29,287 nucleotides of DNA from contig DASSLH010000336.1 of assembly GCA_035689625.1 (NCBI GenBank), positions 1 to 29,287 on the forward strand, given 5' to 3'. The notes under the pieces were generated by a model, which was not told the origin of the DNA, did no database searches, and worked only from the letters and a program-made list of their open reading frames with translations. Positions within the stretch are counted from its first letter, which is position 1. Each line of letters opens with the position of its first letter. Of this stretch, positions 9,279 to 22,442 are shown piece by piece. A program made the translations under genes and the position numbers. The DNA is from Candidatus Methylomirabilota bacterium (GTDB taxonomy: Bacteria; Methylomirabilota; Methylomirabilia; Rokubacteriales; CSP1-6).

Positions 9279-9353
9279 CGCATCACGTCCCTCTCCCTCG
9301 CCCGATGGATCGCGGGCTGGGCAACCGCCGGGGCCTGCGTCGCAGTCGCGATC

Positions 9354-9572
9354 ATGGTTAGCGCGCAACTGCAGGGCGGAGTCTTCGAATGGCCCTGCGT
9401 GATGGTCGTGATTTGGCCGAGCTCGATACTCCTGATGGCCCTGGAGGCGGTGTCGCAGCCGTGGTGGTGGAAGATCGCGGTACCGGCTGTCGCCGTTGCT
9501 CTCAACGTCGCCCTGTACTCCATCGTCGGCGCCGTGGTCTTCGCGCTCGCCAGGCGGTTCGCGCGCTCCTGA
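9354..9572 (+). CDS. Small hypothetical membrane protein (72 aa from ATG; the frame is open from 9279 and would add an N-terminal TM helix)
   Basis: Two hydrophobic segments (CVMVVIWPSSILLMAL, IAVPAVAVALNVALYSIVGAVVFAL) and a basic tail. The start is uncertain. Confidence 0.55.
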   Translation: MVSAQLQGGVFEWPCVMVVIWPSSILLMALEAVSQPWWWKIAVPAVAVALNVALYSIVGAVVFALARRFARS

Positions 9573-9739
9573 CGGTGCGAGGGGCGGCTGCACTCAACGT
9601 ATCGAAATTTGCTCTCTTGACAGCTTTTCGCGGTGGCGCTCGGTACTCGTCACGAATTCTCACCGCAGTGCCCGCTCACACGCCCGGCAACGCCCCTCAC
9701 GCGACTTTCCTCCGGCGCTCACGTAAACCCGCGACTCCT

Positions 9740-9812
9740 GCGCGTTCGCGCGCTGGCAAGGCTCCCAGGGCCCCGGGAAATCGGGGCTTAGAATTTCCGC
9801 GAGGAGACTCGC
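9740..9812 (+). ncRNA. Candidate structured RNA leader or partner RNA: three consecutive tetraloop hairpins upstream of the HNH gene
   Basis: GCGCG-UUCG-CGCGC (9740-9753), GGGCCCCGG-GAAA-UCGGGGCUU (9768-9789, three GU pairs) and GCGAG-GAGA-CUCGC (9799-9812). Found by eye; no covariation data available. Confidence 0.4.
9789..9806 (+). promoter_or_regulatory. Putative -10 (TAGAAT, 9789-9794) and Shine-Dalgarno (GAGGAG, 9801-9806) of the HNH gene
   Basis: The SD ends 6 nt before ATG 9813. TAGAAT matches 5/6 of TATAAT. No matching -35. Confidence 0.5.
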
Positions 9813-11063
9813 ATGGAGAACGATCGCCTCGCTGACGAGATCGCGCTGCTCTCGGCCCAGATCGAAGTGGCGACCGCCCGGTTGCTCGCGCTCATCCGGG
9901 AGTTCGACGCGCGCGAGGGCTGGAACAACGGCTTCCGGTCGTGCGCTCACTGGCTGGCCTGGCGCGCCGGCCTCGACCTCGACACCGCCCGCGAGCGCGT
10001 CCGCGTGGCGCGTGCGCTCGGCACCCTGCCGCGTCTGGCCCAGGCTCTCGCAGATGGCCAGGTCTCGTACGCGAAGGTCCGCGCGCTCACACGCGTCGCG
10101 ACACCCGAGACCGAGGAGCGTCTCCTGTCCTTCGCCAAGGCCGGCACGGCGGCTCACGTCGAAGTCCTCGTGCGGGGCTGGCGGTGCGTCGACCGCAAGG
10201 CCGAGGCCGAGCAGACAACGCGCCGCCACACGAGCCGGGGGCTACACGTGTATCAGGACGAAGACGGCATGGTGGTCATCCGCGGACGGCTGACACCCGA
10301 GGTGGGGGCGGCGGTGATGCAGGCACTCGCCGCCGGCCGCGAAAAGATCTACGAGCACGCTCGGATCAACGATCCCGAGGGTGACCCGCCAACGGTGGGG
10401 CAGCAGAACGCCGACGCCCTCGGCCTCATGGCCGAGGCAGCCCTGCATCACGAGCTCGATCCCGGCGCGCCGGGCGAGCGCTACCAGGTGGTCGTGCACG
10501 TCGATGCGCCTGCCCTGGCCGATGCCGACCAGCCAGGCCACTCCGTGCTGGAGAACGGAACGCACCTTTCCGCGGAAGGGTGTCGGCGCCTGGCCTGCGA
10601 CGCGAGCCGCGTGGTCATGCGGCGCGATCCGGACGGCCGCGTCGTGGAGGTCGGCGCCCGCACCCGAACGATCCCGGCGGCGCTACGCCGGGCGCTGCAC
10701 CATCGGGACCGCGGCTGCCGGTTCCCGGGCTGCGGCCTACCGGTCGGGGAGGGCCATCACATCCGCCACTGGGCCAGCGGCGGTCCGACGACGCTCTCCA
10801 ATCTCGCGATGCTGTGCCGCCGGCACCATCGGTGCGTCCACGAGGAGAGCTTTCAGGTCGAGCGCCTGCCCGGCGGTGAGTTGGAATTCCGACGGCCGGA
10901 TGGACGAAGGCTGCCGGAAACACCCGAATCAGTCACCGTTGCCTTCCCTGCCTGGAGCAACGTTCACGTCGACACCCGAGCGCTGAGCGGCGGCTGGCCC
11001 GGCGAGCGCCTGGACGTCGGCTACGCCATCGACGTCCTGCACCCGCGGGCGACGCAGCCCTAA
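9813..11063 (+). CDS. DUF222-domain HNH endonuclease (13E12/REP13E12-like family), 416 aa, probably mobile
   Basis: N-terminal helical region (LIREFDAREGW...SCAHWLAWRAG...RVARALGTLP...GQVSYAKVRALTRVA), QVVVHVD and RRLACDA. C-terminal HNH with Zn ligands: RRALHHRDRGCRFPGC...GHHIRHWASGGPTTLSNLAMLCRRHH. More A/T-ending codons than the neighbouring genes. Confidence 0.9.
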   Translation: MENDRLADEIALLSAQIEVATARLLALIREFDAREGWNNGFRSCAHWLAWRAGLDLDTARERVRVARALGTLPRLAQALADGQVSYAKVRALTRVATPETEERLLSFAKAGTAAHVEVLVRGWRCVDRKAEAEQTTRRHTSRGLHVYQDEDGMVVIRGRLTPEVGAAVMQALAAGREKIYEHARINDPEGDPPTVGQQNADALGLMAEAALHHELDPGAPGERYQVVVHVDAPALADADQPGHSVLENGTHLSAEGCRRLACDASRVVMRRDPDGRVVEVGARTRTIPAALRRALHHRDRGCRFPGCGLPVGEGHHIRHWASGGPTTLSNLAMLCRRHHRCVHEESFQVERLPGGELEFRRPDGRRLPETPESVTVAFPAWSNVHVDTRALSGGWPGERLDVGYAIDVLHPRATQP

Positions 11064-11842
11064 CGCTCGACCGCCGCCTTCAGGCTCTCGTCGCGGATCA
11101 GCGCGAGCACCTCGCGCTTGAGCTCGTTGAAGAAGGGCGAGGTCGTGACCTCGAGCGGGCGGGGGCGCGGCAGCTCCACGCGCAGGCGCTTCTTGATGCG
11201 GCCGGGGCGGGCGGTCATGACCCAGACGGTGTCGGCGAGGAGCAGCGCTTCCTCGATGTCGTGGGTGACGAAGAGGACGGTCTGCTGGTGGCGTTCCCAG
11301 ACGGACAGGAGCAGCTCCTGCATCACGGAGCGGGTCTGGGCGTCGAGGCTGCCGAACGGCTCGTCCATCAGCAGCACCTCGGGGTCCATCACGAGCACGC
11401 GCGCGATGCCGACGCGCTGCTTCATGCCGCCGGAGAGCTCGGCCGGGTAGTGCGACTCGAAGCCGCGCAGGCCCACCTGCTCGACGAACGTGTCGACCTT
11501 GGCGCGCCAGCGCTCGGGCGGCAGCCGGCGGGTGCGCAGGCCGAACGTGATGTTGTCGAGGACCGTGTACCAGGGAAACAGCGCGGGCTCCTGGAAGACG
11601 ACGGCCCGGCGGGGGTCGGGCGCGCGGACGGGCTCGCCGGCGAAGAGCACGCGGCCTCGCGTGGGCGCGTCGAAGCCGGCCACCATGTTGAGCAGCGTGG
11701 ACTTGCCGCAGCCCGACGGGCCCAGGATGGCGGCGAACTCGTTGCGCCCGACGGCGACGCTCACGCCCTGCAGCGCCTCGACGCGCCGCTCGCCGGTGGC
11801 GAACTCCTTGTAGACGTCCGCCAGCTCCACGTGCGCGCTCAT
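11060..11842 (-). CDS. NitT/TauT family ABC transporter ATP-binding protein, 260 aa
   Basis: ATG at 11842 overlaps the permease TGA (ATGA). Walker A GPSGCGKS, Q-loop VFQEPALFPW, signature LSGGMKQR, Walker B LLMDEPF and H-loop VTHD. Confidence 0.95.
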   Translation of the reverse strand: MSAHVELADVYKEFATGERRVEALQGVSVAVGRNEFAAILGPSGCGKSTLLNMVAGFDAPTRGRVLFAGEPVRAPDPRRAVVFQEPALFPWYTVLDNITFGLRTRRLPPERWRAKVDTFVEQVGLRGFESHYPAELSGGMKQRVGIARVLVMDPEVLLMDEPFGSLDAQTRSVMQELLLSVWERHQQTVLFVTHDIEEALLLADTVWVMTARPGRIKKRLRVELPRPRPLEVTTSPFFNELKREVLALIRDESLKAAVER

Positions 11843-12630
11843 CCGTGGGCTTCCAGCGTGCGCCAGCGGAGCACGACCCGGGCGAGGAGCTGGATCGCGC
11901 GGTCGGAGAGGAAGCCGAGCAGGCCCACGGAGAACATCGTGGCCACGCAGATGTCCATGCGGCCGACGTAGTAGGCGTCCCACAGCACGTAGCCGAGGCC
12001 GGACTTGACGGCGATCATCTCGGCGACGATCACCGCCGTCCACGCGATGCCGATGCCCAGGCGCAGGCCGGTGAAGATCGAGGGCAGCGCCGAGCGGAAC
12101 ACGACCTTGGTGAGGATCGCGGTCTCGCCGGCGCCCAGCATCCGGGCCGCGCGCAGCAGCAGCAGATTCGTGTCGCGCACGCCGTGGGTGGTGTTGACGA
12201 CGATCGGGTAGAAGGCGCCCAGGCCGATGAGGAACAGCGCGCTGGTGTCGTAGATGCCGAACACGGCGATGGCGAACGGCAGCCAGGCGGTGATCGGCAC
12301 CGGGCGCAGCAGCTGCACGGACGGATCGACCAGCCGCGCGACCAGCCGGTTCCAGCCGATGAACAGGCCGAGCGGGATGCCGACGACCGCGGCGAGCGCG
12401 AAGCCCTCCAGCACGCGGCGGCCGGAGTAGAGGACGTTGGCCAGCCAGGTGCCGGAGTACGGCGACAGCGAGCGCGTGGGGCCGCCGACGATCCACTGGT
12501 ACCAGGAGCGCGTCACCTGCTCGGGCGACGGGATGATGCCCTCCATCACCCAGCGCTGGTGCACCGCGGTCGTCCACAGCGCCAGCAGCGCCAGCGGCAG
12601 CAGCACCGACAGGACGAGGCGTCGGGCCAC
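11839..12630 (-). CDS. NitT/TauT family ABC transporter permease, 263 aa
   Basis: LRPVPITAWLP, the EAA loop LRAARMLGAGETAIL...ALPSIFTGLRLG and IVAEMI. Multiple TM segments. Confidence 0.94.
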   Translation of the reverse strand: MARRLVLSVLLPLALLALWTTAVHQRWVMEGIIPSPEQVTRSWYQWIVGGPTRSLSPYSGTWLANVLYSGRRVLEGFALAAVVGIPLGLFIGWNRLVARLVDPSVQLLRPVPITAWLPFAIAVFGIYDTSALFLIGLGAFYPIVVNTTHGVRDTNLLLLRAARMLGAGETAILTKVVFRSALPSIFTGLRLGIGIAWTAVIVAEMIAVKSGLGYVLWDAYYVGRMDICVATMFSVGLLGFLSDRAIQLLARVVLRWRTLEAHG

Positions 12631-15295: not shown

Positions 15296-15799
15296 TCAGC
15301 CGCCGTAGAAGACCTTGTCGCCGAGCTCCCGCAGCCACAGCGTGGCGTCGTCCGGGCGGCCGTCCGGCGTCCGGGCCACGCCGGCCTCGACGACCTTGCC
15401 CACGAAGATCGAGTGATCGCCCTTCTCGACGGTCGCCTCCAGCGTGCACTCGACGAACGCCGGCGTGCTGGCCAGGATCGGCGCGCCGGTGGTGCCGGCG
15501 CGGAACTTCTCGCCGGAGATCGTGTCGCCCTTCTTCTCGGCCGGCTTGAAGAACGTGTAGGCCAGCGGCGCCTGGCCCTTGCCGAGCACGTTGAGCGCGA
15601 AGGCCTTGCTGTCCTTGATGAGCGCGTGGGCGTGCGAGTCGGTCTTGACGCCGACGGCGACCAGCGGCGGCTCGAACGAGGCCTGGGTCACCCAGTTGAC
15701 GGTGGCGGCGGCGACCGAGCCGTCCTTGCCGGCCGCGGTCAGCACGTAGAGGCCGTAGGGAAACATCCGCAGCGCGGTCTTCCTGGCGTTGGCATCCAT
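15296..15799 (-). CDS. Flavin reductase family protein (HpaC/HsaB-like), 167 aa
   Basis: ATG at 15799 with an AAGGAGG SD, inside track ORF 15296..16951. ALRMFPYGLYVLT, VTQASFEPPLVAVGV, FALNVL and ECTLEATVEKGDHSIFVGKV. Confidence 0.92.
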   Translation of the reverse strand: MDANARKTALRMFPYGLYVLTAAGKDGSVAAATVNWVTQASFEPPLVAVGVKTDSHAHALIKDSKAFALNVLGKGQAPLAYTFFKPAEKKGDTISGEKFRAGTTGAPILASTPAFVECTLEATVEKGDHSIFVGKVVEAGVARTPDGRPDDATLWLRELGDKVFYGG

Positions 15800-15833
15800 C
15801 GCGGGTCCTCCTTGGGGCTTGCCGATCGCAGCA

Positions 15834-15840
15834 TATACTA
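15834..15840. promoter_or_regulatory. Putative overlapping bidirectional -10 boxes: TATACT (plus, 15834-15839) and TAGTAT (minus, 15840-15835)
   Basis: 48-bp region between the reductase and oxygenase starts. The plus box ends 8 nt before ATG 15848, and there is no SD. Confidence 0.6.
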
Positions 15841-15847
15841 CGCTCCG

Positions 15848-17032
15848 ATGACCTTCGCCGACGTCGACCGCCCCGAAGCGCTGCGCCGCGCCGAGGCGCT
15901 GGTGCCGGCGCTGCGCGAGCGCGCCGAGCGCGCCGAGGCGCTGCGGCAGATGCCGAAGGAGACGCTGGACGACCTGCACCGCAGCGGGCTGTTCCGCTTC
16001 CACCAGCCGCGGCGCTGGGGCGGCATGGAGCTGGACTTCGCCGCGATCTTCGACATCCCGGCCGTGCTCGGCCGCGGCTGCGCGTCCACGGCGTGGAACG
16101 TCGGCAACCTCGCCATCCATCACTGGATGCTCGCGCTCTACGACGAGCGCGCCCAGCAGGAGGTGTGGGGGGGCGATCCCGACGCGCTCATCGCCTCCGG
16201 CATCGCCTACCCGCAGGGACGCGGCCGGCGCGTGGACGGCGGCCTCGTCGTCAGCGGGCTGTGGAACTTCTCCAGCGGCGTGGACGTCGCCGACTGGAAC
16301 ATGCTGGCGGTGACCGTGCGCGACGGCGAGCGCGTGGTGGACCACCGCATGTGCCTGGTGCCGCGCGCCGACTACGAGATCGTCGACGACTGGCAGACGC
16401 TCGGCATGCGCGGCACCGGCTCGAAGTCCGTGAAGGCGACCGACGTCTTCGTCCCCGAGCACCGCGCGCTGTCCATGTACCTGGCCCGCGGCGGGACCGA
16501 GTACCCCGGCTACCGCGTGAGCCCGAACCCGCTCTACCGCGTGCCGCTCTCCGCGCTCGGCTCCCACTGCCTGGCCGGCGCCGGCGTCGGCAACGCCCAG
16601 GCCGCGCTCGACCTCACCATCGAGGCGATCCGCGAGCGCAGCACCAGCTACACGGCGATGCGCATGCGCGACTTCCAGGCGGTCCAGCTGCGCGTGGCGG
16701 AGGCCGGCGCCCGGGTGGACGCCGCCCGCCTGCTCGTCGGCGACGACTGCCGACAGGCCGAGCGCATCGCGCGCGAGGGTTGGGCGCCGACGCTCGAGGA
16801 GAAGCTGCGCTTCAAGCGCAACGTGGCGTGGGCGATGGGGCTCTGCACCGGGGCCGTGGACGCGTTGCACGCGCTGGCCGGCGCCAACGGCATCTACGAC
16901 CGCTACCCGATCCAGCGCCTGTTCCGCGACCAGCACGCGCTGAGCGCCCACATCGGCTTCTCGTGGGACGCGCAGGGCGGCCCCTGGGCGCTCGTCGCGC
17001 TGGGCGGCGAGTTCGTCTCGCCCACGATGTAG
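15848..17032 (+). CDS. Two-component flavin-dependent monooxygenase, oxygenase subunit (acyl-CoA dehydrogenase fold, HsaA/HpaH-C2-like), 394 aa
   Basis: ATG at 15848, inside track ORF 15413..17032. PRRWGGME, CASTAW...HHWMLALYDERAQQEVWG, GLWNFSSGVDVADW, DDWQTLGMRGTGS and IQRLFRDQHALSAH. Divergent from a flavin reductase. Confidence 0.9.
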   Translation: MTFADVDRPEALRRAEALVPALRERAERAEALRQMPKETLDDLHRSGLFRFHQPRRWGGMELDFAAIFDIPAVLGRGCASTAWNVGNLAIHHWMLALYDERAQQEVWGGDPDALIASGIAYPQGRGRRVDGGLVVSGLWNFSSGVDVADWNMLAVTVRDGERVVDHRMCLVPRADYEIVDDWQTLGMRGTGSKSVKATDVFVPEHRALSMYLARGGTEYPGYRVSPNPLYRVPLSALGSHCLAGAGVGNAQAALDLTIEAIRERSTSYTAMRMRDFQAVQLRVAEAGARVDAARLLVGDDCRQAERIAREGWAPTLEEKLRFKRNVAWAMGLCTGAVDALHALAGANGIYDRYPIQRLFRDQHALSAHIGFSWDAQGGPWALVALGGEFVSPTM

Positions 17033-18134: not shown

Positions 18135-18923
18135 ATGACTGACAAGCTCCTCCTGCAGAAGGACGGCCCCATCGGCTGGATCGTCTTCAACCAGCCCGAG
18201 AAGCGCAACGCGGTGAGCCAGGAGATGTGGGAGGCCATGCCCGGCTACGTGCATGACCTGACCACCGACGACCGCATCCGGGTCGTCGTCCTGCGCGGGG
18301 CCGGCGACGCGGCGTTCGTGTCCGGCGCCGACATCTCGCAGTTCAAGGACAAGCGCAAGAACATGGCCGACGAGGAGGAGTACCGCAAGATCTCCGCGCG
18401 CGGCCAGGACGCGCTCGGCCACCTGACCAAGCCGCTGCTGGCGATGATCCACGGCTACTGCGTGGGCGGCGGGCTCAGCATCGCCATCGGCTGCGACCTG
18501 CGCCTGTGCTCCGACGACGCGCGCTTCGGTGTGCCGGCCGCCCGCCTGGGCCTCGGCTACCACTACCACGGCATGGAGAAGCTCATGCGGCTGGTGGGGC
18601 CGGCCTACACGAAGGAGATCTTCTTCACCGCCCGCACCGACTTCAGCGCGCAGGACGCCTGGCGCATGGGGCTGGTCAACCAGGTGGTGCCCAAGGCGGA
18701 GCTGGAGAGCTTCACGCGCGCGTACGCGGAGACGATGGCGCGCAACGCGCCGCTCACCCTGCGCTCGGCCAAGGCCTCGGTGGACCAGCTCGTGAAGGCG
18801 CCGGCCGAGCGCGACCTGGCGCTGCTCGACAAGCTCATCGCCGACTGCTTCAACAGCCAGGACTACCAGGAAGGCGTCAAGGCCTTCTCGGAGAAGCGGC
18901 GCCCGCAGTTCCAGGGCCGCTGA
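18135..18923 (+). CDS. Enoyl-CoA hydratase/isomerase (crotonase) family protein, 262 aa
   Basis: IVFNQPEKRNAV, AFVSGADISQF, KPLLAMIHGYCVGGG, CDLRLCSDDARFGVPAARLGL and DYQEGVKAFSEKRRPQFQGR. Confidence 0.95.
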   Translation: MTDKLLLQKDGPIGWIVFNQPEKRNAVSQEMWEAMPGYVHDLTTDDRIRVVVLRGAGDAAFVSGADISQFKDKRKNMADEEEYRKISARGQDALGHLTKPLLAMIHGYCVGGGLSIAIGCDLRLCSDDARFGVPAARLGLGYHYHGMEKLMRLVGPAYTKEIFFTARTDFSAQDAWRMGLVNQVVPKAELESFTRAYAETMARNAPLTLRSAKASVDQLVKAPAERDLALLDKLIADCFNSQDYQEGVKAFSEKRRPQFQGR

Positions 18924-20134
18924 CGCCCGCGGCGCGCGCCGGCCGCGCGCGGATCCTCGCCTGGGTCTGCGCGCTCATCGCCATCAACCAGCTCGGCTTC
19001 GGGGCCGTCGTGGCCGTGCTGGCGCTCTACGCGCGCTCCTTCGGCGTCAGCCAGTCGGCGATCGGGCTGGCCATCGGCGTGTACGGCCTGGCGCGGTTCC
19101 TGGTCGCGATGCCGGCCGGCTCGCTGGCCGACCGCGCCGGCCGCCGCCCCGCGCTGGCGCTCGGCGGCCTCGTCACCGGCGCCGGCAACCTCGTGTGCGC
19201 GTGGGCGCCGACGTTCACCGTCTTCATCGCCGGGCGCTTCGTGGCCGGCGCCGGCGCCGCGCTCGTCCTGATCACCGGCACCGTGGTCCTCGCCGACATC
19301 ACGACGCCGGCCGACCGCGGCCGCACGATGGCGATCTACCAGGGCGTGTTCCTGTTCGCCGTCGGCGTGGGCCCTGTCCCCGGCGGCATCCTGGCCGAGC
19401 GGCTCGGGCTCGTCGCGCCGTTCGTCGTCTACGCGGTCGCCGGCACGGTCGCGGCGGTGCTGGCGTGGTTCTTCATCCCGGAGACGCGCCGGCACGGCGG
19501 CGGCGCCAGCGCCGAGGCGGCGGCCGCCCTGCCGGCCTTCGGCAGCCAGGTGCGCCTGCTCACCGCGCAGATCGGCTTCACGCTGGTGAGCTGCATCAGC
19601 TTCGTGAGCGCGTTCGCGCGCACCGGGGCGCTGTTCAACGTCATCCCGGTGCTCGCCCAGGACCGGCTCGGCCTCAATCCCGAGCGCATCGGCGTGGGCC
19701 TGGGGCTGGCCAGTCTCGTCGGGCTGGCGCTGATCTATCCCTCCGGCATGCTGGTGGACCGCTACGGGCGCAAGCCGGTGATCGTGCCGGCCACGGTCGT
19801 GTCCGGCGTATCGCTGGTGATGTTCCTGCTGATGCCGAGCTACGGCTGGTACCTGGCCGCCTGCGTGGTGTGGAGCGTGGCGGTCGGCGTGAGCGGCGCG
19901 GCGCCGGCGGCCTACGCCGCCGACGTCGCGCCGCCCGGCATGAACGCGGCGGCGATGAGCACCTATCGCATGCTGGCCGACCTCGGCTACGTGATCGGCC
20001 CCATCGCGCTCGGCCTGCTCACCGACGGCCTCGGCGCCAACGTCGCGCTGGCGACGGCCGCCGCGCTGCTGGTGACCGTCGCCGCGCTCTTCGCCTGCCT
20101 CGCCCCCGAGACGTTCCGGGCGCGGGGCGTGTGA
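18920..20134 (+). CDS. MFS transporter, about 404 aa, probable CTG start
   Basis: C-terminal part of track ORF 18506..20134. Motif A in both halves (GSLADRAGRR, GMLVDRYGRK), plus DRGRTMAIY and GYVIGPIALG. The first in-frame GTG (19010) would cut TM1. CTG at 18920 overlaps the hydratase TGA. Confidence 0.85.
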   Translation: MTPAARAGRARILAWVCALIAINQLGFGAVVAVLALYARSFGVSQSAIGLAIGVYGLARFLVAMPAGSLADRAGRRPALALGGLVTGAGNLVCAWAPTFTVFIAGRFVAGAGAALVLITGTVVLADITTPADRGRTMAIYQGVFLFAVGVGPVPGGILAERLGLVAPFVVYAVAGTVAAVLAWFFIPETRRHGGGASAEAAAALPAFGSQVRLLTAQIGFTLVSCISFVSAFARTGALFNVIPVLAQDRLGLNPERIGVGLGLASLVGLALIYPSGMLVDRYGRKPVIVPATVVSGVSLVMFLLMPSYGWYLAACVVWSVAVGVSGAAPAAYAADVAPPGMNAAAMSTYRMLADLGYVIGPIALGLLTDGLGANVALATAAALLVTVAALFACLAPETFRARGV

Positions 20135-20135
20135 C

Positions 20136-20753
20136 TCACTGCAGCGGTGACCAGCTGGCCGGCAGCACGATCTTGTTCTGCTGCGTGATGAGGCGATCGG
20201 CGCCGCCCGGCGGCGGCCACACGCCCTTCTTGCGCGCCTCGTCACGGACCTGCATGCGCTGGTCCATGCTCTTGTACGCCCAGATGTGCACGAAGCCGTT
20301 GGCCTTGCCGAACTCCACGCCGCCGGCCAGGACCACCGGCGAGAGCTTCATGCGCTCGGGCAGCTTGGCCTCCCAGCCCTTGGCGGTGTCCGGCAGCGTG
20401 CCGGGCTTGAGCGTGTAGTAGCGGATCTCGAAGATCGGGCCCATCGTGCCCGGGCGCGGCGCCGGCACGAACGGGAACGCGTTGACGATCTCCGAGCGCA
20501 TCTTGCGGATGAACTCGCCGATCTTCGGCGGCCAGTTGGCGTCCTTGGCCGCCTCGGCGCGGATCTTGGCGCGCTCGGCGAGGTCCTGGTAGCCCCAGAC
20601 GTGGATGATCTCGTTCAGCGGCCCGACCTCGGTGTGCCAGAAGGCGGTGATCGGCGAGTACTTCTTGCGGTACTCGTACGCCTCGCCGAAGCGCTTCTCC
20701 ACCTCGGCCAGGCTGCCGGGAGCGATCTGGTAGGTCCGGATTTCGTAGATCAC
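20136..20753 (-). CDS. NIPSNAP family protein with two tandem domains, 205 aa
   Basis: GTG with an AAAGGAG SD. Two similar halves: IYEIRTYQIAPG...VGPLNEIIHVWGYQDLAERAKIR and IFEIRYYTLKPG...FVHIWAYKSMDQRMQVR. Confidence 0.9.
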   Translation of the reverse strand: MIYEIRTYQIAPGSLAEVEKRFGEAYEYRKKYSPITAFWHTEVGPLNEIIHVWGYQDLAERAKIRAEAAKDANWPPKIGEFIRKMRSEIVNAFPFVPAPRPGTMGPIFEIRYYTLKPGTLPDTAKGWEAKLPERMKLSPVVLAGGVEFGKANGFVHIWAYKSMDQRMQVRDEARKKGVWPPPGGADRLITQQNKIVLPASWSPLQ

Positions 20754-20837
20754 GCTGGACTCCTTTCGGCGGTGCGCGGGTTCGAGCGCGTAGTACTATG
20801 CCTCACGCCCCGTCCGGGCGCCACCTCGGGAGGACCC

Positions 20838-22442
20838 ATGACGCTTCGCCCGCGTGTCACGCTCGCGCTGCTGGCCGTCGTCGTCCTCCTGGCCGCCGGC
20901 GGGCCCGCCGCCGGCCAGGCGCCCCGGCGCGGCGGCATCCTCAACGCGATGCTGGTGGAGACGCCGCCGGGCTTCTCCATCCACGAGTCGGCGACGGTCA
21001 CCGGGGTATGGCCGGTCATGCCGTGCTATTCCAACCTGGTGCTGTTCGACCCGCTCAAGCCCTACGAGAGCGCCGACACCGTCATCCCCGAGCTGGCCGA
21101 GCGCTGGTCGTGGCAGGACAACTACCGCAACCTCGTCTTCTTCCTGCGGCACGGGGTGAAGTGGCACGACGGCCAGCCGTTCACGGCCAAGGACGTGAAG
21201 TACACGTTCGACGTCGTGCGCGAGGCGCCCGACGCGCCAGCGAAGCTGCGCCTGTCGCCGCGCAAGGAGTGGTACGCCAACGTCGAGGCCATCGAGACGC
21301 CCGACGCCTTCACGGTGATCTTCCGCCTGCACCGGCCACAGCCCTCGCTGCTCCTCATGCTGGCCTCCGGCTACTCGCCGGTGTACCCGGCCCACGTGCC
21401 GCTCAACGACCTGCGCCAGAAGTGCGTCGGCACCGGGCCGTTCCGGCTCAAGGAGTACGCGCGCGGCACGCTGATCGAGCTGGAGCGCAACCCCGACTAC
21501 TTCGTGCCGGGCCGCCCCTACCTCGAGGGCATCCGCTATCCGATCATCACCGAGCGCGGCACGCGGCTGGCCGCGCTGCAGACCGGGCGGCTCGACGTGT
21601 CCATGCCGCTCGAGATGACGAAGACGATGGCCGAGACGCTCAAGCAGAACGCGCCGTCGCTGGTGATCACCGAGATCGGCCAGAACGGCAGCGATAACGT
21701 GGTCCTCAACCACAAGCGGGCGCCGTTCGATAACCACACCGTGCGCCGCGTCGTCAACCTGGCGCTCGATCGCTACGCCTACGTCAAGGGCGTGCGCCAC
21801 GGCGGCGCCGTCGTCGGCGCCGCGCTGATGCCGCGCCCGGCCGGCGCCTGGGGGCTGCTGGAGAAGGACCTGAGAACGCTTCCCGGCTACCGCAGCTCCG
21901 TCCGCGACAAGGCGCGGGCGCGCGAGCTGCTGGCCGGCGCCGGCTACGGGCCCGGCAAGCCGCTGCGCATCGAGCTGGTGACGCGCGCATTCGCGATCTA
22001 CACCGATCTCGCCTCCTTCGTCGCCGACCAGCTGCGCCAGGTCGGCGTCGAGGCGGCGGTGCGGCAGGTCGAGACCGCCCAGTACTTCCCGATGCTGGCC
22101 CGGCGCGATTACCAGATCGGCGCCAACCTCACCGCCTCCGGCATCGACGATCCCGACGGCTTCTTCTTCGAGAACTACAAGTGCGGCGCCTCGCGCAACT
22201 ACACCGACTACTGCGACGAGGCCGTGGACAAGCTCATCGACGCCCAGTCGCAGGAGCTGGATCGCGCCCGGCGCCTGGTCCTGGCCTGGGAGATCCAGCG
22301 CAAGCTGGAGGCCGCCGTCGCCCGGCCGATGCTCGGCTGGCGCAACGAGTACTTCACGCGGGCGCCGTACGTGAAGAACCTCGTGCCGCACAACACGCTG
22401 TACAACTACGGCCGCATGCAAGAGGTCTGGCTCGACAAGTGA
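20838..22442 (+). CDS. ABC transporter substrate-binding protein, family 5, 534 aa; paralog of 2279..3871
   Basis: ATG at 20838 with a GGGAGG SD, inside track ORF 20286..22442. PELAERW...FLRHGVKWHDGQPFTAKDVKYTF and VGTGPFRL. Confidence 0.94.
   Translation: MTLRPRVTLALLAVVVLLAAGGPAAGQAPRRGGILNAMLVETPPGFSIHESATVTGVWPVMPCYSNLVLFDPLKPYESADTVIPELAERWSWQDNYRNLVFFLRHGVKWHDGQPFTAKDVKYTFDVVREAPDAPAKLRLSPRKEWYANVEAIETPDAFTVIFRLHRPQPSLLLMLASGYSPVYPAHVPLNDLRQKCVGTGPFRLKEYARGTLIELERNPDYFVPGRPYLEGIRYPIITERGTRLAALQTGRLDVSMPLEMTKTMAETLKQNAPSLVITEIGQNGSDNVVLNHKRAPFDNHTVRRVVNLALDRYAYVKGVRHGGAVVGAALMPRPAGAWGLLEKDLRTLPGYRSSVRDKARARELLAGAGYGPGKPLRIELVTRAFAIYTDLASFVADQLRQVGVEAAVRQVETAQYFPMLARRDYQIGANLTASGIDDPDGFFFENYKCGASRNYTDYCDEAVDKLIDAQSQELDRARRLVLAWEIQRKLEAAVARPMLGWRNEYFTRAPYVKNLVPHNTLYNYGRMQEVWLDK

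What the first reader, a model, noticed from the sequence alone, without database searches (positions are those of the whole stretch)
9573..11063. DUF222-HNH endonuclease preceded by a three-tetraloop structured region: candidate RNA-associated mobile nuclease system
Seen: the last 73 nt before the HNH ATG fold into three adjacent hairpins closed by classic RNA tetraloops. They are GCGCG-UUCG-CGCGC (9740-9753), a 9-bp GGGCCCCGG-GAAA-UCGGGGCUU (9768-9789) and GCGAG-GAGA-CUCGC (9799-9812). A further 6-bp stem, GCGGTG/CACCGC (9630-9635/9661-9666), lies upstream. At 240 bp this is by far the longest intergenic stretch in the window. Established: UUCG and GNRA loops are hallmarks of structured RNAs. 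Some HNH proteins (IscB/omega-RNA, HEARO-associated ORFs) work with an RNA encoded upstream. DUF222-HNH (13E12-like) proteins are often multicopy, and I know of no established mechanism for them. Inference: the region may be a conserved cis-leader, or an RNA cofactor or guide scaffold. Caveats: 5-bp stems arise by chance in GC-rich DNA, the UUCG stem is low-complexity CG repeat, and it has the less stable G-C closing pair.
Basis: partly seen in the sequence, partly recalled or inferred. Interest (0 to 1): 0.75.

Follow-up and report, generated by a model that had tools for sequence, protein, structure and literature searches.

The report
Conserved leader of selfish HNH-nuclease element
The DNA in front of this nuclease gene is a real, conserved control region of a multicopy selfish gene in soil Rokubacteria, but it looks like a promoter plus a ribosome-site shield, not like a folded guide or cofactor RNA.

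Summary
They are no more stable than shuffled sequence (z -0.12 and -1.07), and 91% or more of 125 other copies of the leader do not keep them.

What is real is larger. The ORF (DUF222 + HNH) and about 215 nt upstream (9599-9812) form a roughly 1.47-kb unit. It is single-copy in this 76%-complete Rokubacteria MAG and gives up to 49 matches in related genomes. A close relative has an empty site.

Every leader keeps TTGAC and, 170-173 nt later, TAnnnT (usually TAGAGT, here TAGAAT). It also keeps GAAAA, GATCG and GAAA boxes, a C-A step 7 nt after the hexamer, and a Shine-Dalgarno (SD) site.

RNAalifold, mutual information, excess-pairing and z-score tests show no covarying structure. The one exception is a helix that pairs the SD with bases overlapping the -10 box.

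Best reading: the element has its own weak promoter and an IS10/IS50-like fold-back that blocks translation of read-through transcripts. The upstream boxes would be DNA sites, perhaps for the protein's own ParB/KorB-like domain. A guide or scaffold RNA is unlikely (about 5%).

This scan has met DUF222-HNH elements, some with leaders, on other DNA before.

The parts
9279..9598 (.). Orphan DNA between the stop of the periplasmic-binding-protein gene (9278) and the conserved element. It holds a 72-aa ORF (9354-9572). It is part of what is absent from the empty site in G008, but it is not shared with other copies.
   Evidence: in G008:C50 the two flanking genes abut (3 nt); the ORF has no homologue in 20 relatives; it is unrelated to the inserts at this site in other genomes. 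GC3 0.85 against 0.97 in neighbouring genes.
9599..9623 (+). 5' boundary block of the conserved unit: an A/T-rich tract (GTATCGAAATTTGCTC) followed by the invariant TTGACA (9617-9622).
   Evidence: information content starts only 12-20 nt before TTGAC, and TTGAC is invariant in 67 of 67 aligned copies; 0 of 126 leaders have TAnnnT 15-20 nt downstream, so it is not a canonical promoter by itself; there is no second or inverted copy in the element.
9624..9767 (+). Fixed-length spacer of variable sequence with short conserved boxes. Here GTAAA at 9722-9726 stands for the family's GAAAA box, and GTTCG at 9744-9748 stands for the family's GATCG box.
   Evidence: TTGAC to TAnnnT is always 170-173 nt, and the differences are not multiples of 3; information peaks at AAAA (-65..-62) and ATC (-44..-42) relative to TAnnnT; no conserved pairing.
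9768..9788 (+). Promoter-spacer region with the conserved cGAAAnCgGGG sequence (GAAA at 9777-9780). Its stem is particular to this copy.
   Evidence: AAA at -11..-9 is nearly invariant; local fold z 0.04 in 120 copies; the stem is kept in 1% of copies in register; 0.62 canonical cells at a -1 slide.
9789..9794 (+). TAGAAT, a -10-type hexamer. The family consensus is TAGAGT, with T, A and the last T invariant. The predicted transcription start is about 9801.
   Evidence: invariant columns. TAGAGT in 95 of 115 copies; C at +6 and A at +7 after the hexamer in 103 of 120 (here C9800, G9801). No transcript data exist.
9791..9812 (+). SD (GAGGAG, 9801-9806) and the helix that can occlude it.
   Evidence: the only helix with a consistent average pair probability is GAGTC/GACTC; the TAG..ATG window has mean z -1.61, and 49% of copies are below -1.5; the SD is paired to the first 14 nt in 60 of 115 copies, and the arm changes with the SD variant (UUCC/GGAG, CCCC/GGGG, CUCC/GGAG, CUUC/GAAG); the + strand is more stable than the - strand, p 6e-4.
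9813..11063 (+). DUF222-HNH nuclease gene (416 aa). It has a ParB/KorB-like helix-turn-helix region at about aa 20-125 and an HNH domain at about aa 282-369 with the His/Asn/Cys motif columns intact. Conservation among copies ends at the stop codon, and the stop overlaps the stop of the convergent ABC ATPase gene (11060-12577, - strand).
   Evidence: Pfam; invariant C302, C307, H315, H316, H319, N330, C335, H339, H343. AF2 model, pLDDT 85.9. EcoKMcrA Z 7.8 and IscB HNH Z 7.6 on residues 282-358; ParB, Spo0J and KorB DNA-binding domains Z 5-7 on residues 17-171; 3' homology ends at the ORF end. GC3 0.85 against 0.97.

Best explanation
Window 9599-11063 is one copy of a roughly 1.47-kb selfish, REP13E12-like element of Rokubacteria. 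It consists of a non-coding leader of about 215 nt and a DUF222-HNH nuclease gene.

The leader is an expression-control region that is read mainly as DNA and as a short mRNA 5' end. It is not a folded RNA.

Shown:
- The unit is multicopy and lies at different sites in relatives.
- An empty site exists in a close relative.
- The leader is conserved as short sequence boxes at fixed distances.

Inferred mechanism:
1. TAGAAT (9789-9794) is the -10 box of the element's own weak promoter, with a start near 9801. This gives a 12-nt leader here (about 18 nt in most other copies) whose SD is free.
2. Transcripts that read in from the upstream gene also carry 9791-9800, which pairs with the SD and the bases after it. 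The nuclease is therefore not translated from foreign transcription. This is the fold-back inhibition known from IS10 and IS50.
3. The upstream boxes are double-stranded DNA sites for RNA polymerase/sigma or a regulator. They are the A/T tract plus invariant TTGACA, then GAAAA, GATCG and GAAA, held 172 +/- 1.5 bp from the -10 box. The regulator is possibly the nuclease's own ParB/KorB-like domain. This last step is the least certain.
For: Multicopy and mobile:
- 27 of 41 related genomes have matches, up to 49 in the near-complete G007, and many are fragments or carry stops.
- G008 has the flanking genes abutting.
- Four other filled-versus-empty comparisons against G000 place copies in short intergenic spacers.
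- GC3 is 0.85 against 0.97 for the neighbours.

Leader conserved only next to the gene.

Promoter-like features:
- T, A and T of TAnnnT are invariant, and the hexamer is TAGAGT in 95 of 115 copies.
- 'CA' lies at +6/+7 in 103 of 120 copies.
- The start codon is most often 25 nt (range 12-25) after the hexamer, and a purine-rich SD lies between.

Fold-back:
- The TAG..ATG segment is the only part with a clear stability excess (z -1.61).
- The SD is paired with bases upstream of the predicted start in 52% of copies, with compensating arm and SD variants.
- The + strand is favoured.

Against an RNA scaffold.

DNA-binding domain in the protein: Foldseek gives ParB and Noc probability 0.96-0.97; VIA-align gives ParB, Spo0J and KorB Z 5-7.
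Against: - No transcript data exist, so the start site is only predicted.
- No -35-like hexamer lies 16-19 nt upstream of TAGAGT; that position reads CCAGGn. The consensus scan calls no promoter.
- Only about half of the copies sequester the SD in the MFE fold. Two sub-groups (CGGCGC and CCGCGC after the hexamer) do not.
- The model does not explain why a perfect TTGACA with an A/T tract is invariant 172 bp upstream and lacks a -10 partner. It also does not explain why the length is held to +/- 1.5 nt.
- The ParB-like match is moderate (Z below 8), and no repeated docking array was found in the leader.
Confidence: 0.55

Rival explanations
1. The leader is transcribed (for example from a promoter using TTGACA) into a structured non-coding RNA. 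This RNA acts as a cofactor or guide scaffold for the HNH nuclease, as omega-RNA does for IscB. The variable DNA just upstream of 9599 would supply a guide.
For: The layout looks right on the surface: a unique flank, a sharply starting conserved block of about 215 nt of fixed length, then an HNH gene. The HNH domain is structurally close to the IscB HNH (Z 7.6, 25% identity). The family has no established mechanism (PMC13061034).
Against: - No covariation or consensus structure in 67-126 diverged copies.
- Fold z is -0.60, the same as the antisense strand.
- No Rfam hit at E<=1.
- No -10 box follows TTGACA in 0 of 126 leaders.
- A 41%-identical DUF222-HNH gene has only 21 nt upstream.
- The protein has no RuvC, PLMP or REC-like parts. 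Instead it has a ParB/KorB-like dsDNA-binding domain.
Confidence: 0.05
2. The whole leader is a long 5' UTR of the HNH mRNA. It would be a cis-regulatory RNA (a sensor, or a binding site for the protein's own autoregulation) whose structure is too variable or too irregular for these tests to see.
For: The anti-SD helix requires that 9791-9800 be transcribed at least sometimes. The conserved A-rich boxes are predicted to be unpaired in most copies. There is a weak excess of pairing around the GAAAA box (sum Z 9.0, about 50% of copies).
Against: The same negative structure tests apply as above. The invariant positions are exactly those of sigma-70 -35 and -10 hexamers. The C-A step 7 nt after the hexamer fits a start site better than an RNA motif. 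There is no strand asymmetry in overall fold stability.
Confidence: 0.12
3. The leader is chiefly a DNA machine for the element's own propagation. It would be the end recognised, docked on or nicked by the DUF222 (ParB/KorB-like) HNH protein during copying or gene conversion. Expression control would be secondary.
For: - There is a sharp 5' boundary, and the leader travels only with the gene.
- The protein has a ParB/KorB-like domain.
- The A/T tracts at -7, +108 and +160 from TTGAC are 115 and 52.5 bp apart, which is 11.0 and 5.0 helical turns.
- REP13E12 loci are gene-conversion hot spots in M. tuberculosis (PMC13061034).
- An earlier scan report read upstream repeats of another DUF222-HNH family as ParB-like docking sites (e1-3937088).
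Against: There are no terminal inverted repeats, no second TTGACA copy and no conserved 3' non-coding end. No internal repeat array was found. No target-site duplication or common target motif could be defined, because filled sites carry unrelated extra DNA on one or both sides. The helical-phase observation is post hoc and rests on three tracts.
Confidence: 0.2
4. The three hairpins are chance products of GC-rich DNA, and the region has no function beyond an SD.
For: The fold z-scores are near zero and the stems are not conserved.
Against: The region itself is under clear constraint. It has invariant hexamers, a fixed length of 170-173 nt and conserved boxes, across copies whose leaders are only 46% identical on average and whose proteins are 60-75% identical.
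Confidence: 0.05

Closest known systems
REP13E12 / '13E12 repeat' DUF222-HNH family of Mycobacterium tuberculosis and other high-GC bacteria (Gordon et al. 1999, as cited in PMC10589994; PMC13061034)
   Same: The domain pair is the same (PF02720 + PF01844). The repeat unit is about 1.4-1.5 kb and includes upstream non-coding DNA. Copies are dispersed, many are decayed, and no mobility mechanism is defined.
   Different: The host phylum differs (Rokubacteria / Methylomirabilota). Copy number is much higher (up to 49 matches per genome). The leader is clade-specific, with invariant TTGACA and TAGAGT 172 bp apart. The phiRv1 attB feature of the mycobacterial repeats was not examined.
Fold-back inhibition of IS10 and IS50 transposase translation, which protects against outside read-through transcription
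   Same: The element's own promoter start lies inside or after the 5' arm of a helix whose 3' arm holds the SD. Only read-through transcripts can therefore occlude the ribosome site.
   Different: The protein is an HNH nuclease, not a DDE transposase. There are no terminal inverted repeats. No antisense RNA was identified. Only about half of the copies show the helix. Nothing has been tested experimentally.
IscB with omega-RNA (OMEGA systems) and the HEARO RNA motif
   Same: The HNH domain has a similar fold (Z 7.6). A conserved non-coding block lies directly upstream of the nuclease gene.
   Different: There is no RuvC, PLMP or bridge helix. There is no HEARO or Rfam match, no covarying scaffold, no IS200/IS605 context, and the leader is absent from distant family members.
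ParB / Spo0J / Noc / KorB DNA-binding domains with their parS, NBS and OB sites
   Same: Residues of about 17-171 superpose on the helix-turn-helix DNA-binding domain of these proteins (Z 5-7; Foldseek probability 0.96-0.97). Conserved boxes, including the palindromic GCGATCGC in most copies, lie upstream of the gene.
   Different: No ParB N-terminal CTPase domain was matched. No repeated site array was found. Binding is untested. The domain is fused to a nuclease.

Membership tests
REP13E12-like DUF222-HNH repeat element | The protein has DUF222 (PF02720) followed by HNH (PF01844). | tested here: met
   E 3.1e-31 and 4.8e-07, both above the curated cut-offs; the HNH His, Asn and Cys columns are invariant.
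REP13E12-like DUF222-HNH repeat element | A dispersed multicopy unit of about 1.4 kb that includes non-coding DNA. | tested here: met
   the unit runs from about 20 nt before TTGACA to the stop codon (about 1.47 kb), with up to 49 matches per related genome. This MAG has a single copy at 76% completeness.
REP13E12-like DUF222-HNH repeat element | Presence and absence vary between related genomes (mobility). | tested here: met
   empty site in G008; four more sites that are filled in relatives and empty in G000.
IscB / omega-RNA (OMEGA) | A split RuvC domain and PLMP/bridge-helix parts around the HNH. | tested here: not met
   no such Pfam domains; the IscB alignment covers only residues 289-358 (HNH).
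IscB / omega-RNA (OMEGA) | A structured, covarying RNA scaffold encoded upstream. | tested here: not met
HEARO RNA (Rfam) or any Rfam family | A covariance-model match. | tested here: not met
   no match at gathering thresholds over the whole window; none at E<=1 in 9450-9950.
IS10/IS50-type fold-back protection (works like this; not a family membership) | The SD is paired with sequence that lies upstream of the element's own transcription start. | tested here: inconclusive
   z -1.61, 52% of copies, compensating variants and a + strand bias. The start site itself is only predicted and no RNA data exist.
Canonical sigma-70 promoter | -35 and -10 hexamers 16-18 nt apart. | tested here: not met
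   there is a -10-like box without a -35 at the right distance, and TTGACA has no -10 partner. The two consensus hexamers are 172 bp apart.
ParB/KorB-type DNA-binding domain | The helix-turn-helix fold of the ParB DNA-binding domain. | tested here: inconclusive
   probability 0.96-0.97 on about 100 residues. Z 5.1-7.0 for ParB, Spo0J and KorB. This is below the Z 8 level that the tool calls clearly above background.
Free-standing HNH homing endonuclease | Cleaves the empty allele of its own insertion site. | not testable with these tools
   No common target motif was seen at five sites. A cleavage assay is needed.

The most novel reading that the evidence does not exclude
The leader is a new kind of switchable control region. 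A perfect -35 box with an A/T tract and a perfect -10 box are held exactly about 172 bp apart, with A/T tracts 11 and 5 helical turns apart. The element's own ParB/KorB-like nuclease (or a leader RNA) would then loop, wrap or otherwise remodel this DNA, to couple nuclease expression to the element's copying. A variant not strictly excluded is that the leader RNA is a poorly structured partner of the nuclease.
Probability: 0.1. Interest if true: 0.7.

Novelty: new member of a known kind. Interest (0 to 1): 0.4.

Why it matters
DUF222-HNH ('13E12') genes form a very large family. This search found 30,738 clusters at 50% identity. A March 2026 preprint still says REP13E12 regions 'lack defined biological function' (PMC13061034).

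The Rokubacteria clade offers more than 120 diverged copies with a sharply bounded leader, plus filled and empty sites. That makes it good material for working out how these elements are expressed and copied.

For the scan, the result is mainly corrective. The attractive 'tetraloop RNA / guide RNA' reading does not survive comparison. The invariant TTGACA box at a fixed 172-bp distance remains truly unexplained.

Tried and rejected
- Structured-RNA reading. Rfam found nothing at gathering thresholds or at E<=1. RNAalifold on 67 copies gave 0 pairs. APC-corrected mutual information and observed-minus-expected canonical pairing on 126 copies gave no stacked helix; the best four-pair run had sum Z 9.0, at the GAAAA box, in about half of the copies. 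Averaged pair probabilities showed only the anti-SD helix. Fold z-scores were the same on both strands.
- A coding leader was rejected, because the lengths of 170-173 nt differ by non-multiples of 3.
- A TTGACA-driven canonical promoter was rejected: 0 of 126 leaders have TAnnnT 15-20 nt downstream.
- A 'short form' with TTGAC-N16-20-TAGAGT, which a deletion would produce, was not found in 160 loci.
- Terminal inverted repeats or a second TTGACA copy: none.
- An internal tandem repeat or docking array in the leader: the autocorrelation maximum is z 2.3, with no clear period.
- Solo leaders: none in G007 by pattern, none in G000 by nhmmer.
- Transcript evidence: no RNA runs hold the sequence. 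The DNA contigs of four soil runs only confirm both junctions and show no empty-site joint.
- Exact insertion boundaries and target duplication could not be defined, because filled sites carry unrelated extra DNA.
- I did not run the count of structure pairs or build a covariance model. The first would have needed a long typed dot-bracket string, so I made the equivalent counts by script. For the second, no consensus structure existed to model.
- Complex prediction was not used, because it gives no verdict for protein with DNA or RNA.
Full report
**Observation**

The ORF 9813-11063 is DUF222 plus HNH.

The region does not fold better than shuffled sequence. The z-score is -0.12 for 9573-9830 and -1.07 for 9735-9815. 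Rfam gives no match over the window at gathering thresholds, and none at E<=1 around the leader.

**What the thing is**

The window comes from a soil MAG of Candidatus Rokubacteria / Methylomirabilota, judging by the record titles of near relatives. The MAG is 76% complete, in 712 contigs.

The gene is single-copy in this MAG. Among 41 related genomes, 27 have matches. Counts reach 49 in a 4-contig genome (G007), and many matches are fragments or carry stop codons. The wider protein family is huge: 30,738 clusters at 50% identity at E<=1e-3.

Alignment of the flanks of about 28 copies, and then of 126 non-identical copies, shows where the copies resemble each other. Similarity starts 12-20 nt before an invariant TTGACA (window 9617-9622) and ends at the stop codon. 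The repeated unit is therefore window 9599-11063, about 1.47 kb.

In G007 every leader found by pattern sits directly in front of an HNH ORF. A profile search of the own genome finds only the window's copy.

The gene's GC3 is 0.85, against 0.97-0.98 for its neighbours.

**Mobility**

- In G008 the periplasmic-binding-protein gene and the convergent ABC ATPase gene abut with 3 nt between them. Window 9279-11063 is missing there.
- G004 has a different copy in the same intergenic site. It is 72.6% identical in DNA, against 87-90% for the flanks. It starts 12 nt after the upstream stop codon and has 550 nt of unrelated DNA after it.
- G005, G011 and G006 carry 266, 488 and 1006 nt of mutually unrelated DNA at this site, with no nuclease gene.
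- Four sites that are filled in other genomes are empty in G000. All are short spacers between genes.
- No target duplication, terminal inverted repeat or common target motif could be defined.
- Contigs from four independent soil runs bridge both junctions of the window's copy.

**Anatomy of the leader**

Two hexamers are invariant: TTGAC(A) and TAnnnT. The second is TAGAGT in 95 of 115 copies and TAGAAT here, at 9789-9794. They are always 170-173 nt apart. The length differences are not multiples of three, so the leader is not coding.

Other conserved features:
- an A/T tract just before TTGACA;
- AAAA at -65..-62, ATC of a GATCG box at -44..-42, and AAA at -11..-9, all relative to TAnnnT;
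- C-A at +6/+7 after the hexamer, in 103 of 120 copies;
- a purine-rich SD;
- the start codon most often 25 nt after the hexamer.

None of the 126 leaders has a TAnnnT 15-20 nt after TTGACA. No -35-like hexamer precedes TAGAGT at the proper distance.

**Test of the RNA-structure reading**

- RNAalifold on 67 copies returns no consensus pair.
- Mutual information with APC correction, and a scan for stacked column pairs with excess canonical pairing, find no helix on 126 copies. The best candidate, around the GAAAA box, pairs in only about half of the copies.
- The 215-nt leaders have mean z -0.60, and their reverse complements have -0.53.
- The 'UUCG' is this copy's variant of the GATCG box. 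The 'GAAA' is conserved as sequence, but the window around it has mean z 0.04. The 'GAGA' loop is the SD.
- A family member 41% identical to the window's protein has only 21 nt between a divergent gene and its start codon. The leader is therefore clade-specific and not a family-wide cofactor.

**The one structural signal**

The segment from TAnnnT to the start codon is more stable than shuffles: mean z -1.61, with 49% of copies below -1.5. The only helix with a consistent averaged pair probability joins GAGTC of TAGAGTC to GACTC just after the SD.

In 60 of 115 copies the SD is paired with bases in the first 14 nt, counting from the first base of TAnnnT. The arm changes together with the SD variant: UUCC/GGAG, CCCC/GGGG, CUCC/GGAG, CUUC/GAAG. 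The + strand folds better than the - strand (mean -0.83 kcal/mol, p 6e-4). That fits an RNA rather than a DNA palindrome.

The 5' arm overlaps and follows the -10 box. A transcript starting about 7 nt after the box would therefore lack that arm, whereas read-through transcripts would carry it. This is the logic of fold-back inhibition in IS10 and IS50, which I name from my own knowledge. My comparative data support it in part.

**The protein**

The AlphaFold2 model has mean pLDDT 85.9. Residues 282-369 are a standard HNH domain: EcoKMcrA Z 7.8, IscB HNH Z 7.6, plus TagI, Cap5 and Cas9 HNH. The catalytic and zinc-site columns are invariant.

Residues of about 17-171 resemble the DNA-binding domains of ParB, Spo0J, Noc and KorB. 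Foldseek gives probability 0.96-0.97 and VIA-align gives Z 5-7. This match is moderate. No RuvC or other IscB parts are present.

The architecture is that of a protein that recognises double-stranded DNA by itself. An earlier report of this scan reached a ParB-like docking reading for another DUF222-HNH family (e1-3937088). I found the fold match independently, but I found no repeat array in this leader.

**Literature**

The held library has no paper on a mechanism or an RNA partner for DUF222-HNH. DIVE lists REP13E12/HNH/DUF222 among repetitive elements (PMC10589994). A 2026 preprint finds REP13E12 loci among the most frequent gene-conversion sites in M. tuberculosis and says they lack defined function (PMC13061034).

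**Verdict**

The hairpins are real letters, but they are chance-level and specific to this copy. The region is a true conserved cis-leader of a REP13E12-like selfish element.

The best-supported working model is the element's own -10-driven promoter plus an SD fold-back shield, with upstream DNA boxes of unknown partner. The guide or scaffold RNA reading is unlikely.

Two things remain unexplained. One is the invariant TTGACA with its A/T tract, held 172 +/- 1.5 bp from the -10 box. The other is the A/T tracts spaced 115 and 52.5 bp apart, which is 11 and 5 helical turns; that observation is post hoc.

Noticed in passing
window 9279-9598 and 11060-11066; L161-L165: The spacer between the convergent periplasmic-binding-protein and ABC ATPase genes is a hypervariable hot spot. 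It is 3 nt in G008. It holds 266, 488 and 1006 nt of mutually unrelated orphan DNA in G005, G011 and G006, about 5.5 kb in G010, and HNH elements with different extra flanks in G000 and G004.
   Followed up: partly
window 9354-9572: A 72-aa hydrophobic ORF (GC3 0.85) lies between the upstream gene and the element. It has no homologue in 20 relatives. It may be spurious, or it may have been carried in with the insertion.
   Followed up: partly
window 9599-9794 (family-wide): A/T tracts at -7, +108 and +160 relative to TTGAC are 115 and 52.5 bp apart (11.0 and 5.0 turns of 10.5 bp). TTGAC to TAnnnT is held at 170-173 bp. This suggests a DNA-geometry constraint. It is a post hoc observation.
   Followed up: partly
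window 15296-16951 and 18506-22442: These ORFs have GC3 of 0.80-0.87, like the HNH gene and unlike the 0.94-0.98 of most neighbours. They may be other foreign DNA.
   Followed up: no
window 11266-11447: Contig depth in four soil runs jumps to 70-2200x here. This is a conserved ABC ATPase motif that recruits contigs of many organisms. It is a mapping artefact, not a repeat of this genome.
   Followed up: no
L166:1-305, L167: A DUF222-HNH gene 41% identical to the window's starts 21 nt after a divergent gene and has no leader. The leader is therefore specific to the Rokubacteria clade.
   Followed up: yes
window 9813-9850 versus other copies: The window's ORF lacks roughly 4-20 N-terminal codons that most other copies have between the conserved ATG and the first conserved residues.
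   Followed up: no
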